This document shows positions 12,001 to 18,000 of a stretch of 38,682 bases of DNA, in pieces (position 1 is the first letter of the stretch; the number at the start of each line of letters is the position of its first letter). A program made the position numbers. This DNA is from Escherichia phage Gally: the sequence record OV696608. One strand, given 5' to 3'.

Positions 12001-15000
12001 GAAGCCGTGAAAGAAACTGGTCGCGGACTGGTGCAGGCTGGCGTGAACGTGGCGAACATACCTGCATCAGTTGCCGATGCTGTAACAAGCGCAGCGGCTT
12101 GGGCTGGCGGTAAACTCGGCATTGGCGATGGCACATATCAACCAGCGCCACGAGTAACAACGCAGGGATTAGAGCAGGACTTTGGCCTTCAGCAAGGTGC
12201 GCTGACTCCACAAACGACAGAGGGAAGGGTATTTGCTGAAGCATTGCCTTACCTCACTCCTGCTGGCGTTGAGAGAGCGGCGGTACAGGCACCAACACTT
12301 GCTGGTCGAATTGCTCAGGGGGCAACTCGCCTTCTAGCAGAAAACGCAGTTGGATCACTTGCTGCAAATAGTGCGAAAGATGATGCGGAAGCACTAGCCA
12401 CCGACTTAGGCGTTGGCGTTCTGGCTGGCGGTGCTATTAACGCTGCCGGACGTGGATTAGGTGCTGCTTATCGTGGCGTTCGTGGTGCTATCGCGCCAGA
12501 AGCGCAGCAGGCTATCAGATTTGCAGAGCGTGAAGGAGTTCCTCTGCACACCACAGACCTGTTACAACCAACTTCCCGCGTCGGAAAAATGGCGCAGACT
12601 ACAGCAGAAAATATCCCTCTGGCTGGCACAAGCGGAATGAGAGCAACGCAACAGGAAGCGAGAAGCCAGTTGGTGCAGAGATTTGCTGATAAATTCGGTG
12701 AGTATGATCCAGCTGTTGTTATTGACAGCCTTAAAGCGAAAACATCAGGAATTCGTCGTGCTGCAGGGAACCGTCTTGAGCAGGTTCAGAATGCAATGGC
12801 GGGAGTCAATATCCAGCCTGCGCGAGCAATTCAGCAGATTGATACAGAAATATCTAACCTGCAGAAGCTTGGTAAGGTTGCTGATAACGAGACTATTTCA
12901 AAACTTCAGTCATATCGTGATGAGCTTATTCGCAATGCTGGTCCTGATGGTCCGGTCAATCTGGATTTGAAGCAATTAAGCGATCTGCGCAGCCAGTTCA
13001 GAATGGACGTGAAGGGTGAGCGACCAGTGTTACCAAACCGTTCCGATGCTGCCATTCAGCGAGTTTACAAGGCGATGACCGACGATATCAATGGTGCCAT
13101 TGGTCAGAATCTTGGCAATGATACTCTTCGTAAATATCAGCAGGCCAATGCCGTCTACGCTGACGAAGCGGCGAAACTAAAGAATACCAGGATGAAGAAT
13201 GTTCTCATGAAAGGCGACCTGACACCGGAAGTTGTGAATAACATGCTATTCAGCAAGAACAAATCGGAAATTAAGACTCTGTATAACTCAGTTGGTCGTG
13301 TTGGCAGGACGCAAATGCGCAATGGCATCATTGGAAAGGCGATGGAGAAATCTGGCGGATCCCCTGACCAGTTCCTTCGGCAGCTTAACATCCTGCAAAA
13401 CCAGACTGGCATCACATTTAAGGGGCAGGACGCTGCTTATCTGAAAGGATTAAAAAACTACCTGCAATCCACGCAGCAGGCTGCAAAAGCGGCAGTAACA
13501 ACACCCACAGGGCAGCAAACTATCCCGTTCATAATTGGGTATGGGACGGCAATGAACCCGGCTACAACTGGCGCAGCAGTAAGCTACGGACTTCTTACTC
13601 GCGCCTATGAGAGCGAGCCATTCAGAAATGCAATGCTCCGAATGGCAAACACCCCACGCGGATCAACAGCGTTTGAGAAAGCCATGCAGCAGGCGCAAAA
13701 GGCCATTAACGCCCTTACTCAGGGGGCTAAGTCTGATGCGTTGTCAGAATAGCTTTTCAAACACCAGGAACGTGCAAAAACCAAATATGTAGAACGCGAG
13801 GTTTATCGTATCCCTCTGCATAGGCGATACCTTTGCTGATTGTTATCTGATGTTACTGCTACTGTTGCATGTGACTGTATTTCCAAACCCTGAATTGCAG
13901 TTTGTGTAAGTGTCAACGCGTGTTGGGTAAGGTTGAGTTATAACAGGCTGGCGCGCTTTTTGCTCGATAGCTTGCATTGTGTTTACAGCCTGATAATTCA
14001 ATAAAGCCTGCTGGAATGCTTGGCTTTGTGCTATTTGTTGGGCTTGTTCTTGGCTTTGTAATTGAACATAAAGATTCTGAAGCTCAAGTCTTGCCTGCGC
14101 GTCACTTATCTTGCCATCATCGACACCTTGCCCGAGCATCTTCGCAGCAAGGACATATAACTTAGGTGTTGGTGCTGATGCCATGCGTGAGTCGCTCTTC
14201 ACGCTAGCATCAAGGCAATTAGCCATATCGCTAAGCTTTGGATAGCGTTGTTCGCAACTTGCCTGATAGTCGCTAACCTTTGCACACCCTGCCAGCAGAA
14301 GCGGGATAATTAACAGTGATTTTTTCATATGATTAACTCTCCTTATCTTTGCCATCATGGCACTGTTGGGTGTAAATGAGTTATTAACTCAATCGACAAT
14401 ATCTTCACGAAAATACTTTTTATTATTAAGATCTTTCTGATTCTAACAAAACGGAAAGTAATATGAAGAGGATTATCGGCGTCGTTGCTGGCGCTATATT
14501 GTTATCTGGGTGCGCAACTATTGTTGGTGACGAAACACAGCTTGTGCAAGTGAACAGCAATCCTTCCGGTGCGAGCTTTAAGGTAAAAGACGAATCCGGC
14601 GTGATTGTTGCGCAAGGTAAGACTCCGCAAGGAGTAACTCTTGCCAAGTCAGATGGTAGTTATTTTGGCAAAAAGAGCTACCAGATCACTATGGAAAAGG
14701 ATGGGTACGAACCAGTTACCCTGCCAATCAAAGCCAATGCTAATGGTTGGTATATTGGTGGAAACCTTGTGTTTGGTGGGTTAATTGGTTGGCTTGCTGT
14801 AGATCCTTTTAATGGTGGGATGTATACCTTGAAGCCAAAAGAGGCAAACGCATCTCTTATACCATCAACAAAGCAAGACTAATAAATAGGACCCACCTTC
14901 AGGTGGGTTTTTTGTACAAATCCTTCAGCGTATCAAACACCATCTTCTTAACAAGTTCAGACTGCTCATCAGCGATGCGTTCCGCATCGTCTCGATAGCC

Positions 15001-18000
15001 TGAAATTTTGGATGGCTTTGATACAGCATCAGTCACTATCTGAACTAATTCTGAATTAAGAGAGCGGCCATTGGATTTGGCTCGCTGTTTTAGTTTTTCC
15101 TTTAATTCGTAAGGTAGCCGCAGATTAAATTGCGGGTCATCTCTTCCCATTCTTGATGCCTCGCTTTTGTGAGTGGATCGGCATCTTATTATCTGCTGGT
15201 TGCATCCTCAATAAGACCACAGTGGTCTCTTTGTTTGATTAATAATGCATCACTGTGGCAATGCTGCGGCGATTCCTTGTATCTGGAGCAAATTAAATGA
15301 CAGACATTACAGCCAATGTTGTAGTGAGTATGCCTTCGCAACTCTTCACTATGGCGCGTTCTTTTAAAGCGGTTGCCAATGGCAAAATTTATATCGGTAA
15401 AATTGACACTGACCCGGTAAATCCAGAAAACCAGATTCAGGTTTATGTAGAGAATGAAGATGGCTCTCACGTTCCTGTTGCACAGCCAATCATCATTAAC
15501 GCTGGCGGGTATCCGGTATATAACGGACAGATTGCCAAATTCGTAACTGTACAGGGCCATTCTATGGCTGTTTATGATGCGTATGGTGCGCAGCAGTTCT
15601 ATTTTCCTAATGTGCTGAAGTATGACCCTGATCAGTTACGGCAGCAATTAGAAGACCCGGATGGTTCTAAAAAATATCCAGAATTGCAGATTGCACGATG
15701 GCGTGATGACAAAGACGTTCGCGGTTGGGGGGCTATCAGTGATGGAATAACTGACGCTACTGAGGCATTCTCTAACGCAGGCTATAGAATGTTTGTTCCT
15801 GATGGCGATTTTGCAGTAAATACTCTCGAAGTTGATGTATCTTCTGCTCGAGGTATTGGGAGGATTGTTGCAGATAATGGCTCTCTTATTTCAGTTTCTC
15901 GTCTGCTTGAAACTGACAAACTTGCGCAGAGAAAAATGATGGAACCTTTTTTTGGTTTTCAGGGAGAAACAAACACAGAAATTTACCCTAATGCCAGAAA
16001 TGCGTTACAGGGGATCGCATATTGCCGTGTTAATGGCATTGAAAAACTATTTGTCACACAACGGCCTGTTGGGCCGACCTGGTCAGATAAAGAAAGAGTT
16101 CGTATTGTTGAGTTTAATCTTTATGATGATGGAAGGGTAGTAAACCATGTTGCGTATTCTCCAGAATTAAACCTTGGGCACGGTTTTGATCTTTCTGCCA
16201 TGGTGGAGAATGGTCAAGTATATTTATATACATCAAGTGTAACCAATTCAGGTGAAGATGGGGAGTCTGCAGGCAAAGGGTTTAGTAAAATAACTTGGCG
16301 AGGGGCAGAAACAACTCAGTCTGACGTAAAAAGTTATAATGTATGGGGGATTACTGGTAGCGGTCACCCATTTCAAGATTACAATCGTGCAGGAATTGCC
16401 ATTTCTTCTGACGGTCGTCTTTTAATAATGGTTAATACACCAAAGAGTGATGCCGCTAAACGAACTGTATTTATATACGATAAAATATCAATTGATAAAC
16501 TTGAAGATAAAACATTAGCAAACCCCATGTTTGTTTGGGAAATGAGCGACTCACCTTCTGAAGGCGCTTACTCTGTACAAGGTATTGCGTCTGATGGAAG
16601 ATATATACATATACTTAAGGGAGGGGCTAACGCTTTTGGAAAGCATCATATCTTTACATATGATTTAACAGGTAATTTACTAAGAAAATTAGATATCGAT
16701 GATGCAAGGTCGCAATATGGGCGCGATGGGTTGCTTAACCATCCAACTCTTGGGAATCCAGCCAGATTTGAGCCGGAAGGTCTAACTATTCGTGGTGAAG
16801 AAATAATTATAAGCTGCATAGAAACATGGAGGGCAGGAGCTAATATTGTAAACTGGCGTGGAAGAAGATGGGCTGCATCATCCATTGAGACTTCTGGAAT
16901 AATTGGTGTCCCTCCATCAAATGGCTCTTATTGGGTAGAAACAACCAAGGATGCAAATTCTGGAGATTGGAGTCCTGAAATAGATTATGGATGGGGAAGT
17001 AGCTATTCTCTTGAGAAAAAGACAATTTACTCTATACGACCAGCGACTGGTAACAACGATGATCAGAACCTTAATTCTGGCATAACCAATGCTTCAAGTA
17101 ATGCAGGTGTAGATGCCGGAGAAAGCGGGCGAAATATATCATTTAGATGGCGCAATGCTTTTAATATTGTTGCATTTAGCGAACGTCTTGGTGAATACTT
17201 CAACGCTATTATGTATGATAATAGCTCAAGACTAAGAATATACGATCAGCAAAACGGTAGTGATAACACTGTTTATGGCTCAATCCAGGCACTATTTACG
17301 TCATCATTTAAGGGATTGATTTTAAGGGGTAGGGGGGTATCAGCATCAAATAGTTCCTATATTAGGTTACATTCATCTGATGATCCAAACTACCCAAATT
17401 CGATCATTGAAGGAACAAGAACAGATGGAAGTTTTTCCAGGGAAACAGATTCAAACGGAACCACTACATTCGCATCGGACTCAGAGCACGAACCGTTGCG
17501 TATCAGAAGGGCTTCAGATGGTTTGTTGTTTGCATACGAGAAAGTAAGAGGTACAACTCTCTTTGGAATTTATAGAGGCTCCGGTTCACCTGAGGGTGTT
17601 GTGACCGCACCTCAGGGGTCAATGTATATTGATTATAATGGTGATTGGTATCAAAAGAAAACAGGAACAGGAAACACAGGATGGGTGTTAAAATAGACTA
17701 TTCTATTTTAATTGTTATCACTAAACCACCTCCATTGGAGGTGGTATTTTATTGTTTATATTTAAGATAACTAAGTGATTAGTAATAGAATATTATATCT
17801 TTATATCTATAGATTTTTATCACACTTACTCAGTTCATTTGTCATGTCAATAAGTTTATTTAAAAAGTTGATTAAGTTGAGTAATGGTTAAAGTTTTTAT
17901 ACGTTTCCATAGGCCATATTTGACAAAGGAGTAGTAATGGATATAACAGCTTTTCTTCACGCACTTTGCGCTGTTGTCGCACAGGCTCTGGTTGGTCTTT

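What the first reader, a model, noticed from the sequence alone, without database searches (positions are those of the whole stretch)
13753..15296. Accessory locus between ejection genes and tailspike: two divergent lipoproteins plus an orphan Mnt repressor
In P22 this slot holds sieA and the immI region (mnt-arc-ant). Here it holds two predicted lipoproteins transcribed divergently: a minus-strand 161-aa protein (MKKSLLIIPLLLAGC, Q-rich C-terminal half) and a plus-strand 139-aa protein (MKRIIGVVAGAILLSGC, PEGA-like beta-rich body). They are followed by an Mnt homologue with no arc or ant. I do not recognise either lipoprotein as a characterised exclusion protein (not Cor, Llp, Bor or SieA by sequence). 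Prophage lipoproteins in this hotspot are plausible candidates for superinfection exclusion, receptor masking or another lysogenic-conversion function, possibly under Mnt-type control.
Basis: partly seen in the sequence, partly recalled or inferred. Interest (0 to 1): 0.72.

Follow-up and report, generated by a model that had tools for sequence, protein, structure and literature searches.

The report
Two orphan prophage lipoprotein genes
Between the DNA-ejection genes and the tailspike gene of the E. coli LF82 prophage Gally sit two unrelated, independently mobile lipoprotein genes that the dormant prophage expresses; they occupy a long-known variable hotspot, and their function, most likely blocking other phages at the cell envelope, has never been tested.

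Summary
The window is phage Gally of E. coli LF82. The slot between gene 16 and the tailspike gene holds a minus-strand 161-aa lipoprotein (LipoA), a plus-strand 139-aa lipoprotein (LipoB), and an Mnt repressor without arc or ant.

This slot is the known "ant moron" hotspot of P22-like phages, and an orphan mnt is a known arrangement. The two lipoproteins are not a functional pair.

- **LipoA** always sits where P22 has sieA. In Serratia and Proteus prophages it is co-transcribed with mnt.
- **LipoB** is a promoter-gene-terminator cassette. It also occurs in siphovirus prophages, including the exact slot of the HK97 gp15 exclusion moron.

Published RNA-seq shows both genes transcribed from the prophage while the adjacent ejection genes are silent. 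LipoB read density is more than 100-fold that of the neighbouring gene.

Neither protein resembles a characterised exclusion or defence protein. LipoB is a PEGA/transthyretin-like beta-sandwich with a glycine-rich hydrophobic hairpin. LipoA is a disulfide-bonded helical domain followed by a glutamine-rich helix and a Cys-hairpin. Both families have non-phage chromosomal relatives in other proteobacteria.

Direct Mnt control in Gally is unlikely. Curing Gally does not change macrophage survival. Superinfection exclusion is the best guess, resting on position only. I rate it an ordinary but useful candidate, of moderate interest.

The parts
11755..13752 (+). Gene-16-type DNA ejection protein (665 aa); left border of the hotspot
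   Evidence: ORF. RefSeq calls identical or near-identical copies 'P22-gp16 family phage DNA ejection protein'. GALLYPH_12 'injection protein' is transcriptionally silent in all RNA-seq conditions.
13843..14328 (-). LipoA: 161-aa lipoprotein (lipobox LLAG|C, Ala at +2). It has a helical N-domain with conserved Cys25/Cys38, a Gln-rich long helix, and a C-terminal Cys-Cys beta-hairpin. It occupies the sieA position and orientation.
   Evidence: invariant C15, C25, C38, C154; AF2: helices 18-125, hairpin 138-158; pLDDT 65; phrog_6067. Same slot in Salmonella, Proteus, Serratia, Morganella and Citrobacter P22-like prophages. Transcribed in LF82.
14329..14462 (.). AT-rich divergent intergenic region holding candidate promoters for both lipoprotein genes. 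LipoB: TTCACG (14404-14409), 17 nt, TAAGAT (14427-14432), followed by the conserved leader block CTTTCTGATT. LipoA (minus strand): TTCATA-16-TAGAAT (14467 to 14440) and TTGTTA-16-AATAAT (14449 to 14422).
   Evidence: Consensus scan, which found no more sites than shuffled sequence gives. Upstream alignment across phage backbones. GC 0.39-0.40 here against 0.45-0.57 in the ejection genes. Promoter function is inferred, not shown.
14463..14882 (+). LipoB: 139-aa lipoprotein (lipobox LLSG|C, Ala at +2). PEGA/transthyretin-like beta-sandwich (residues 25-93), a conserved Gly-rich hydrophobic hairpin (95-115, GWYIGGNLVFGGLIGWLAVD), and two strands that pack back on the sandwich.
   Evidence: (pLDDT 78.6; sandwich >95). 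Homologue of epsilon34 gene 15 at 97.8%. Highly transcribed in LF82.
14889..14914 (.). Bidirectional rho-independent terminator shared by LipoB and mnt (GGACCCACCTTCAGGTGGGTTTTTTG)
   Evidence: Identical element annotated as a terminator in epsilon34. Every LipoB homologue examined carries its own hairpin plus T-run.
14899..15150 (-). mnt: Arc-fold repressor, 76% identical to P22 Mnt; no arc, sar or ant
15183..15228 (.). Pmnt-like promoter on the minus strand (-10 TAAGAT = 15188 to 15183; -35 TTGAGG = 15211 to 15206; 17-nt spacer) overlapping the Mnt operator CTCAATAAGACCACAGTGGTCT (15207-15228; perfect palindrome 15214-15228)
   Evidence: Side-by-side comparison with the annotated P22 Pmnt and Omnt (CTCAATAGGTCCACGGTGGACCT) and with ST160. 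Single occurrence in the window.
15297..17696 (+). Tailspike (799 aa); right border of the hotspot
   Evidence: Head_binding domain 7.9e-67

Best explanation
The locus is the 'ant moron' hotspot of a P22-like prophage (Gally of E. coli LF82). It carries two unrelated accessory genes acquired independently.

Shown:
- Both genes encode proteins with class-II signal peptides and lipoboxes. Neither has Asp at +2, so by the Lol sorting rule they should be anchored to the inner leaflet of the outer membrane, facing the periplasm.
- Both are transcribed from the prophage while the flanking virion genes are silent.

LipoA is the positional replacement of sieA. It converges on gene 16 and lies downstream of mnt. 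In Serratia and Proteus relatives it sits 17-18 bp behind mnt with no terminator, so it is made from the lysogen-active mnt promoter. In Gally, the LipoB cassette and its bidirectional terminator were inserted between mnt and LipoA, so LipoA now uses a promoter in the 134-bp AT-rich spacer.

LipoB is a self-contained promoter-gene-terminator cassette. It moves between tail-region moron slots of unrelated temperate phages.

Inferred function: both modify the envelope of the lysogen, and the most likely benefit is superinfection exclusion at or after adsorption. LipoA would interfere in the periplasm with the ejection-protein conduit of incoming P22-like phages, as inner-membrane SieA does from the other side. 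LipoB would act more generically, for example by masking or immobilising an outer-membrane component through its membrane-dipping glycine-rich hairpin.

Mnt regulates its own promoter and the promoter region upstream of the tailspike gene, not the lipoprotein genes.
For: Anatomy and identity.

Known hotspot: Villafane 2008; P22 annotation.

LipoA is tied to the sieA slot in five or more genera with different gene-16 types. The mnt-LipoA operon geometry is seen.

LipoB is a mobile cassette:
- It occurs in at least 8 gene combinations in P22-like loci.
- It lies between tail gene T and the tape-measure gene in HK97-like E. coli prophages, whose flanks are 53% and 81% identical to those of HK97. 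That is where HK97 has the gp15 exclusion moron.
- It lies directly upstream of the tape-measure gene in Proteus prophages.
- It lies between tail genes I and J in lambdoid prophages.
- A conserved promoter/leader block and an own terminator travel with it.

Expression (PMC9928086 S1/S4), in log2(fpkm+5):

| Gene | LB overnight | Medium controls | Macrophages |
|---|---|---|---|
| LipoA | about 6 | about 8 | 8.5-10.3 |
| LipoB | about 5-6 | about 10 | 9.4-11 |
| Neighbouring ejection genes | 2.3-4.2 in every condition | | |

Mechanistic precedent: P22 SieA acts on the gp16/gp20 conduit. The same paper cites HK97 gp15 and the TP-J34 lipoprotein Ltp, which targets the tape measure, as exclusion proteins.
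Against: - No functional data exist for either protein.
- The argument for exclusion is positional. These slots may simply be the places where insertions are tolerated (raises this).
- Neither protein shows sequence or fold similarity to any known exclusion or defence protein.
- Both families have chromosomal, non-prophage members in other proteobacteria. This suggests an intrinsic envelope function not aimed at phages.
- Strong induction in cell-culture medium and macrophages fits a host-adaptation role at least as well.
- The LipoA structural model is only moderately confident (pLDDT 65).
- The promoters are consensus-level inferences (8-9 of 12 matches).
Confidence: 0.42

Rival explanations
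1. Host-fitness conversion rather than phage exclusion. One or both lipoproteins alter envelope properties, such as stress tolerance, serum or antimicrobial-peptide resistance, or adhesion, as lambda Bor does. The prophage carries them because they help the lysogen in the host.
For: Both genes are low in overnight LB and 4- to 30-fold higher in culture medium and inside macrophages. Relatives of both families are ordinary chromosomal genes in non-phage contexts: an A. baumannii PEGA lipoprotein next to fruBKA and P0222 next to uvrC/udg/earP. The strain is an adherent-invasive pathogen. The conserved leader block upstream of LipoB suggests regulation by a host factor.
Against: Curing Gally, which removes both genes, does not change LF82 survival in THP-1 macrophages at 6 or 24 h. 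The main text of an in-vivo CRISPRi gut-colonisation screen of LF82 highlights other Gally genes and not these. The one supplementary file held as text has no entry for them, so this is absence of mention, not a measured null. LipoA is confined to one slot of one phage type, which would be odd for a general fitness factor.
Confidence: 0.3
2. A function in the phage's own lytic cycle. LipoB lies on the late-operon strand and would also be made late in infection. It, or LipoA, could protect progeny from re-adsorbing to or ejecting into lysing cells and debris, as T5 Llp does for its receptor, or could modulate read-through into the tailspike gene.
For: LipoB is co-oriented with the late operon in all 80 viral loci. 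The ant moron is thought to influence tailspike expression in P22. The Llp precedent rests on background knowledge and was not tested here.
Against: LipoB has its own promoter-like block and terminator. It is expressed when the late genes are silent. LipoA is antisense to the late operon. P22-like phages use O-antigen as primary receptor and destroy it enzymatically, so receptor masking by a periplasmic lipoprotein is not an obvious need.
Confidence: 0.1
3. One reading: a divergent lipoprotein pair forming one accessory unit under Mnt control.
For: Physical adjacency in Gally. mnt, tailspike, LipoA and LipoB all rise together in macrophages. In relatives, LipoA is in the mnt operon.
Against: The two genes are found separately far more often than together. 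There is a single Mnt operator in the window, 300 bp or more and one terminator away from either lipoprotein gene. LipoA and LipoB transcript levels exceed mnt levels in every condition.
Confidence: 0.06
4. Hitch-hiking cargo with no selectable phenotype in E. coli.
For: High flux of the hotspot. Low prevalence, 2-3% of complete E. coli genomes. No phenotype reported so far.
Against: Both families keep invariant residues, lipoboxes and disulfide cysteines across genera, down to 50-60% identity. LipoB keeps its regulatory block and terminator across unrelated phages. Expression is high.
Confidence: 0.1

Closest known systems
P22 SieA (superinfection exclusion protein of the same slot)
   Same: LipoA has the same genomic position and orientation: convergent with gene 16 and downstream of mnt. 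It is similar in size (161 against 164 aa) and is expressed from the prophage. SieA's targets, the gp16/gp20 ejection proteins, are encoded next door.
   Different: No sequence similarity. [quoted passage not shown] LipoA is a predicted lipoprotein with a soluble, disulfide-bonded periplasmic body.
HK97 gp15 moron (exclusion protein between the tail chaperone and tape-measure genes)
   Same: LipoB homologues sit in exactly this slot in HK97-like E. coli prophages, between homologous flanking genes. Both are promoter/terminator-bounded morons.
   Different: gp15 is a 62-aa hydrophobic protein unrelated in sequence (one search prints it). LipoB is a 139-aa lipoprotein that also uses other slots.
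Prophage and phage exclusion or conversion lipoproteins: Cor (phi80/N15), Llp (T5), Bor (lambda), Ltp (TP-J34)
   Same: All are small lipoproteins encoded by phage accessory genes, expressed in the lysogen or infected cell, and acting at the envelope.
   Different: No homology. PHROG Cor hits cover only the signal peptide (E 0.003-0.09). There are no PADLOC or PDB sequence hits. Fold searches return only generic sandwiches or helical bundles.
Epsilon34 gene 15 and the 'ant moron' of P22-like phages (Villafane et al. 2008)
   Same: LipoB is 97.8% identical to epsilon34 gp15, with the same terminator and the same junction to mnt. The region is the described hypervariable moron.
   Different: Epsilon34 has hkcB instead of LipoA and keeps a full mnt-arc-ant immunity region.
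PEGA-domain lipoproteins of proteobacteria (Pfam PF08308)
   Same: The beta-sandwich body of LipoB matches this fold. The chromosomal A. baumannii homologue passes the PEGA cut-off.
   Different: The Gally protein itself scores below the cut-off. The defining conserved feature of this family is the C-terminal NGWYIGGN...GG.IGW..VDPFNGGMYTL block, which PEGA does not describe. No member has a known function.

Membership tests
Bacterial lipoprotein (signal peptidase II substrate) | Positively charged n-region, hydrophobic h-region, lipobox [LVI][ASTVI][GAS]C within the first ~25 residues | tested here: met
   LipoA is MKKSLLIIPLLLAG|C and LipoB is MKRIIGVVAGAILLSG|C. The Cys is invariant in both families. 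LPAM_1 matches 6 of 51 LipoB relatives. No dedicated predictor (LipoP/SignalP) was available.
Bacterial lipoprotein (signal peptidase II substrate) | Outer-membrane sorting: no Asp at +2 | tested here: met
   Both have Ala at +2. Localisation itself is inferred from the Lol rule, not measured.
Moron (independently expressed insertion in a phage operon) | Present between genes that are adjacent in related phages | tested here: met
   Sf6 and the APSE phages have nothing in this slot, and other phages have different contents. LipoB is present or absent in otherwise similar loci. It lies in the HK97 gp15 slot.
Moron (independently expressed insertion in a phage operon) | Own promoter and terminator | tested here: inconclusive
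   LipoB has a conserved promoter-like block and a hairpin plus T-run in every context examined. LipoA has candidate promoters only and no clear terminator. No transcription start sites have been mapped.
Moron (independently expressed insertion in a phage operon) | Transcribed from the repressed prophage | tested here: met
   Published RNA-seq shows both genes 4-fold to over 100-fold above the flanking late genes. The authors' 5x-median cut-off in overnight LB (78) just excluded them (70 and 51).
SieA family | Sequence similarity to one of the three SieA types; inner-membrane protein | tested here: not met
   No BLASTP alignment to P22 SieA. No SieA PHROG hit. The only hydrophobic segment is the signal peptide. 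Only P22-type SieA was compared directly.
SieA family | Blocks DNA entry of P22-like phages | not testable with these tools
   Needs infection and K+ efflux assays.
Cor / Llp / Bor exclusion or conversion lipoproteins | Sequence homology beyond the signal peptide | tested here: not met
   PHROG Cor hits are confined to residues 1-20 and 1-29. No other hits at E<0.1. PADLOC returns nothing.
PEGA domain (PF08308) | Score at or above the Pfam gathering threshold | tested here: not met
   LipoB scores 17.6 bits against 20.8. 13 of 51 relatives match weakly, best E 0.0015. A 42%-identical A. baumannii relative scores 21.9. Fold-level agreement is seen.
P22 Mnt repressor | Arc-fold N-domain plus Mnt C-terminal tetramerisation helix | tested here: met
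   PF03869 at 78.8 bits and PF11423 at 66 bits, both above cut-off. 76% identity to P22 Mnt.
P22 Mnt repressor | Palindromic operator next to its own promoter | tested here: met
   CTCAATAAGACCACAGTGGTCT at 15207-15228 aligns with P22 Omnt CTCAATAGGTCCACGGTGGACCT in the same geometry. Binding was not measured.
P22 immunity I region (mnt-arc-sar-ant) | arc, sar RNA and ant present | tested here: not met
   No such ORFs. No Rfam hit. The homology to epsilon34 skips arc-ant.

The most novel reading that the evidence does not exclude
LipoA is the first outer-membrane-anchored, periplasmic superinfection-exclusion protein against short-tailed phages. It would be a non-homologous replacement of SieA that blocks assembly of the gp7/gp20/gp16 ejection conduit from the outer-membrane side. 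LipoB would be a promiscuous envelope cassette regulated by a host signal, whose conserved glycine-rich hairpin inserts into the outer membrane and gives lysogens of many phage types a broad exclusion or envelope-protection phenotype.
Probability: 0.22. Interest if true: 0.62.

Novelty: new member of a known kind. Interest (0 to 1): 0.4.

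Why it matters
P22-like prophages are common in E. coli, Salmonella, Shigella, Proteus and Serratia. Only one occupant of this hotspot, SieA, has a known mechanism.

LipoA-type genes are in 3.4% of complete E. coli genomes and LipoB-type genes in 2.3%. LipoB relatives also ride in lambdoid and HK97-like prophages.

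If either protein excludes phages, that would affect the design of phage-therapy cocktails against adherent-invasive and other pathogenic E. coli. It would also add a periplasmic route to blocking DNA delivery. If instead they change envelope properties, they are lysogenic-conversion factors of a Crohn's-disease-associated strain.

The analysis also corrects a published statement that Gally has no morons. The same paper's data show two strongly expressed accessory genes that fell just under a threshold chosen for overnight LB cultures.

Tried and rejected
1. Known-family assignment. Pfam, NCBIfam, PHROGs and PADLOC gave only family-of-unknown-function hits. The NCBIfam GspK hit to LipoA (18 bits against a 130 cut-off) and the 'GspK' name on one homologue come from the Gln-rich low-complexity helix, so I rejected them.
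2. Structure-based assignment.
   - LipoA gives only generic four-helix bundles, including cytochrome b562 and bacteriocin immunity proteins (Z no higher than 7.1), from a pLDDT-65 model. I treat these as uninformative.
   - The AlphaFold database library was not available.
3. PDB sequence searches found nothing.
4. A profile search with LipoA found 246 representative relatives, but none has a Pfam family. The follow-up indexed search returned only 16 proteins.
5. Transmembrane reading of the LipoB C-terminal segment. The mean Kyte-Doolittle hydropathy of the 18-residue segment is about 1.4, worked out by hand. It is not among the top 19-residue windows, all of which fall in the signal peptide. 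It is therefore not a classical transmembrane helix, and I describe it only as a Gly-rich hydrophobic hairpin.
6. Small RNAs (sar-like). Rfam found nothing.
7. A Pant-like rightward promoter upstream of the tailspike gene. The region aligned with P22 Pant is degenerate in Gally. I could not name the promoter behind the macrophage induction of the tailspike gene.
8. A host-regulator site in the conserved LipoB leader block. I noticed loose resemblance to PhoP and OmpR half-sites, from memory only. I did not test it and make no claim.
9. Literature. No paper in the library mentions these proteins by locus tag or accession apart from the LF82 transcriptome tables. The one supplementary file of the CRISPRi preprint held as text has no entry for them.

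Full report
**What the window is.** Over 13500-15400 the window is 100% identical to the E. coli LF82 chromosome next to torT. The prophage there, named Gally, is given as 998,954-1,037,635 in LF82, which is 38,682 bp, the size of the window. In the window the tailspike gene and a 95-aa ORF are followed by an integrase gene rather than torT. The window is therefore the excised, permuted phage genome. Gally is a P22-like podovirus of the genus Lederbergvirus.

**The observation.**
- A gene-16-type ejection protein ends at 13752.
- LipoA is at 13843-14328 on the minus strand (161 aa, MKKSLLIIPLLLAGC).
- LipoB is at 14463-14882 on the plus strand (139 aa, MKRIIGVVAGAILLSGC).
- mnt is at 14899-15150 on the minus strand.
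- The tailspike gene starts at 15297.

The mnt product matches Pfam Arc and Repressor_Mnt above threshold and is 76% identical to P22 Mnt. There is no arc, ant or sar. P22 carries sieA, orf59a, mnt, arc, sar and ant between genes 16 and 9.

Both lipoprotein ORFs are real genes. Each matches a PHROG family of unknown function over its full length. Each has many homologues with an invariant lipobox cysteine. Both are transcribed.

**The slot is already known.** Villafane et al. (2008) named the region between genes 16 and 9 the "ant moron". They showed ten content types in sixteen P22-like genomes. They noted that ST64T, ST104 and Para1 carry only mnt plus one unknown gene, and that epsilon34 genes 14 and 15 are of unknown function. 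LipoB is epsilon34 gene 15 (97.8% identity). Orphan mnt next to gene 9 also occurs in ST160, SE1, VSe13 and Proteus phage Brookers. So the hotspot and the orphan Mnt are not new. What remains open is what the two lipoproteins do.

**The two lipoproteins are independent modules.**
- Salmonella phage VSe13 has LipoA without LipoB. Epsilon34 has LipoB without LipoA.
- Among 80 LipoB-carrying IMG/VR contigs, LipoB occurs in at least eight gene combinations. Only about 16 contigs also carry LipoA.
- In 5,426 complete E. coli genomes, LipoA-type DNA is in 186, LipoB-type DNA in 126, and the whole three-gene arrangement in 24.

**LipoA is tied to the sieA position.** Every LipoA relative whose context I read lies in a P22-like prophage between the gene-16 homologue and mnt or the tailspike gene, converging on gene 16. 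This holds in Salmonella, Proteus, Serratia, Morganella and, for a distant relative, Citrobacter.

In Serratia and Proteus the gene starts 17-18 bp after the mnt stop codon, with a Shine-Dalgarno sequence and no terminator. There it is the second gene of the mnt operon, which is active in lysogens. In Gally, LipoB and a bidirectional terminator (14889-14914) lie between mnt and LipoA. LipoA transcripts exceed mnt transcripts in every condition. LipoA must therefore use a promoter in the 134-bp AT-rich spacer, where consensus candidates exist.

**LipoB is a mobile cassette.** Relatives 68-78% identical lie in siphovirus prophages in three places.
- In HK97-like E. coli prophages it lies between tail gene T and the tape-measure gene. 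The flanks are 53% and 81% identical to those of HK97, and in HK97 that position holds the gp15 exclusion moron.
- In Proteus prophages it lies directly upstream of the tape-measure gene.
- In lambdoid prophages it lies between tail genes I and J.

In all contexts the gene is followed by its own hairpin plus T-run. It is preceded by a conserved block, TTCAC(A/G)-17 nt-TA(A/G)GAT followed by GTTTCYGRTT. This looks like a promoter and leader that travel with the gene.

**Expression.** The supplementary tables of Misson et al. 2023 give RNA-seq values for exactly these genes, in log2(fpkm+5).

| Gene | LB overnight | In-vitro medium (1 h / 6 h) | Macrophages (1 h / 6 h) |
|---|---|---|---|
| LipoA (GALLYPH_13) | 6.3 / 6.0 | 7.9-8.2 | 10.3 / 8.5-8.7 |
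| LipoB (GALLYPH_14) | 6.2 / 4.8 | 9.8-10.5 | 11.0 / 9.4-9.5 |
| Three ejection genes immediately upstream | 2.3-4.2 throughout | | |

In the medium control, LipoB has about 5,000 reads on 420 nt. The neighbouring 1,998-nt gene has about 200.

The authors concluded that Gally has no morons. Their cut-off, five times the prophage median in overnight LB, was 78 normalised counts, and these genes had 70 and 51. mnt, the tailspike gene and the 95-aa ORF also rise 20- to 40-fold in macrophages.

**What the proteins look like.**
- LipoA is predicted with moderate confidence. It has a helical N-domain with an invariant cysteine pair, a roughly 50-residue glutamine-rich helix, and a C-terminal two-cysteine hairpin. 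Fold matches are generic.
- Neither protein matches SieA, Cor, any PADLOC model or any PDB sequence.

**Wider families.** A profile of LipoA finds 246 representative relatives, mostly lipoproteins of about 130 aa that share the N-domain and the C-terminal cysteine hairpin. One of them sits among housekeeping genes (uvrC, udg, earP) with no phage genes nearby. LipoB relatives reach Acinetobacter, Pseudomonas and alphaproteobacteria. The A. baumannii copy lies next to the fructose PTS operon and passes the PEGA threshold. Both phage genes therefore look like captured versions of ordinary envelope lipoproteins of unknown function.

**Mnt.** The mnt-tailspike spacer keeps the P22 geometry. A palindrome, CTCAATAAGACCACAGTGGTCT (15207-15228), aligns with P22 Omnt, CTCAATAGGTCCACGGTGGACCT. 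It overlaps the -35 of a leftward TTGAGG-17-TAAGAT promoter. It is the only such site in the window. The segment corresponding to the P22 ant promoter is degenerate. Direct Mnt control of the lipoprotein genes in Gally is therefore unlikely. Deleting mnt did not affect macrophage survival.

**How it most likely works.**

Shown:
- two autonomous accessory genes in a known hotspot;
- lipoprotein signals;
- expression from the prophage.

Inferred:
- outer-membrane localisation, from Ala at +2;
- an envelope-level function.

I favour superinfection exclusion (about 0.4 overall, somewhat higher for LipoA than for LipoB). LipoA has replaced sieA gene-for-gene, next to the genes for SieA's targets. 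LipoB turns up in the HK97 gp15 slot.

The main rival (about 0.3) is a Bor-like host-fitness role. It is favoured by the induction pattern and the chromosomal relatives. It is weakened by the finding that curing Gally leaves macrophage survival unchanged, and by the absence of these genes from the main text of a gut CRISPRi screen.

**Verdict.** This is a known kind of locus with two uncharacterised, well-expressed cargo genes. They are worth a simple plasmid-challenge experiment, but they are not a new kind of system.

Noticed in passing
window 17937-18224 (+): A 95-aa hydrophobic protein (GALLYPH_17, phrog_1443, unknown function) lies between the tailspike gene and the attachment site and integrase. 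It is silent in LB and about 30-fold up in macrophages (log2FC 4.9). It is another candidate moron that the published analysis did not count.
   Followed up: partly
window 14427-14446; L002, L076, L100, L101, L108 upstream of the LipoB homologues: A block of about 17 nt (TTAGGATGTTTCCGATT; TTAAGATCTTTCTGATT in Gally) is conserved upstream of LipoB across unrelated phage backbones. The conservation is stronger than a -10 element needs, which suggests a binding site for a host regulator or an RNA leader. The factor is unknown.
   Followed up: partly
PMC9928086 S1 Table, relating to window 13843-14882: The published statement that Gally carries no morons comes from a threshold applied to overnight LB cultures (cut-off 78; these genes scored 70 and 51). 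In the other four conditions of the same data set the two genes are the most highly expressed in the part of the Gally table that I read (right-hand end and integrase region).
   Followed up: yes
window 15297-17696 (+): The tailspike has the usual head-binding domain. Its receptor-binding part gives a weak hit (E 0.0064, below cut-off) to a five-bladed beta-propeller receptor-binding platform, rather than resembling the P22 beta-helix endorhamnosidase. Its GC content is also lower (0.35-0.45).
   Followed up: no
L005, L007, L009 at 10261-11424; L008 at 10270-11343: The HK97-like E. coli prophages that carry the LipoB homologue in the gp15 slot also carry a porin gene (Porin_1/Porin_4) inserted between tail genes M and L. 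That makes two envelope-protein morons in one tail operon.
   Followed up: no
window 15207-15228 and 14899-15150; L018 3323-3345: The Gally operator half-site is GACCAC where P22 has GTCCAC. The Gally Mnt N-terminal strand reads RDDPQFNLRLP where P22 has RDDPHFNFRMP. This is a possible matched change of repressor and operator specificity. ST160 shares the Gally-type operator.
   Followed up: partly
L021 5640-5670: In the Serratia mnt-LipoA operon, the region upstream of mnt carries a different palindrome (GTACCATTTTGGTAC). A similar motif (GTACCATTTAGGTA) appears in VSe13. This suggests several Mnt/operator specificity types within the hotspot.
   Followed up: no
window 14329-14358: The original LF82 annotation (LF82_138, 516 nt) starts LipoA 30 nt upstream, giving 171 aa. 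The homologue alignment and the AGGAG 9 nt before the ATG at 14328 favour the 161-aa RefSeq start.
   Followed up: yes
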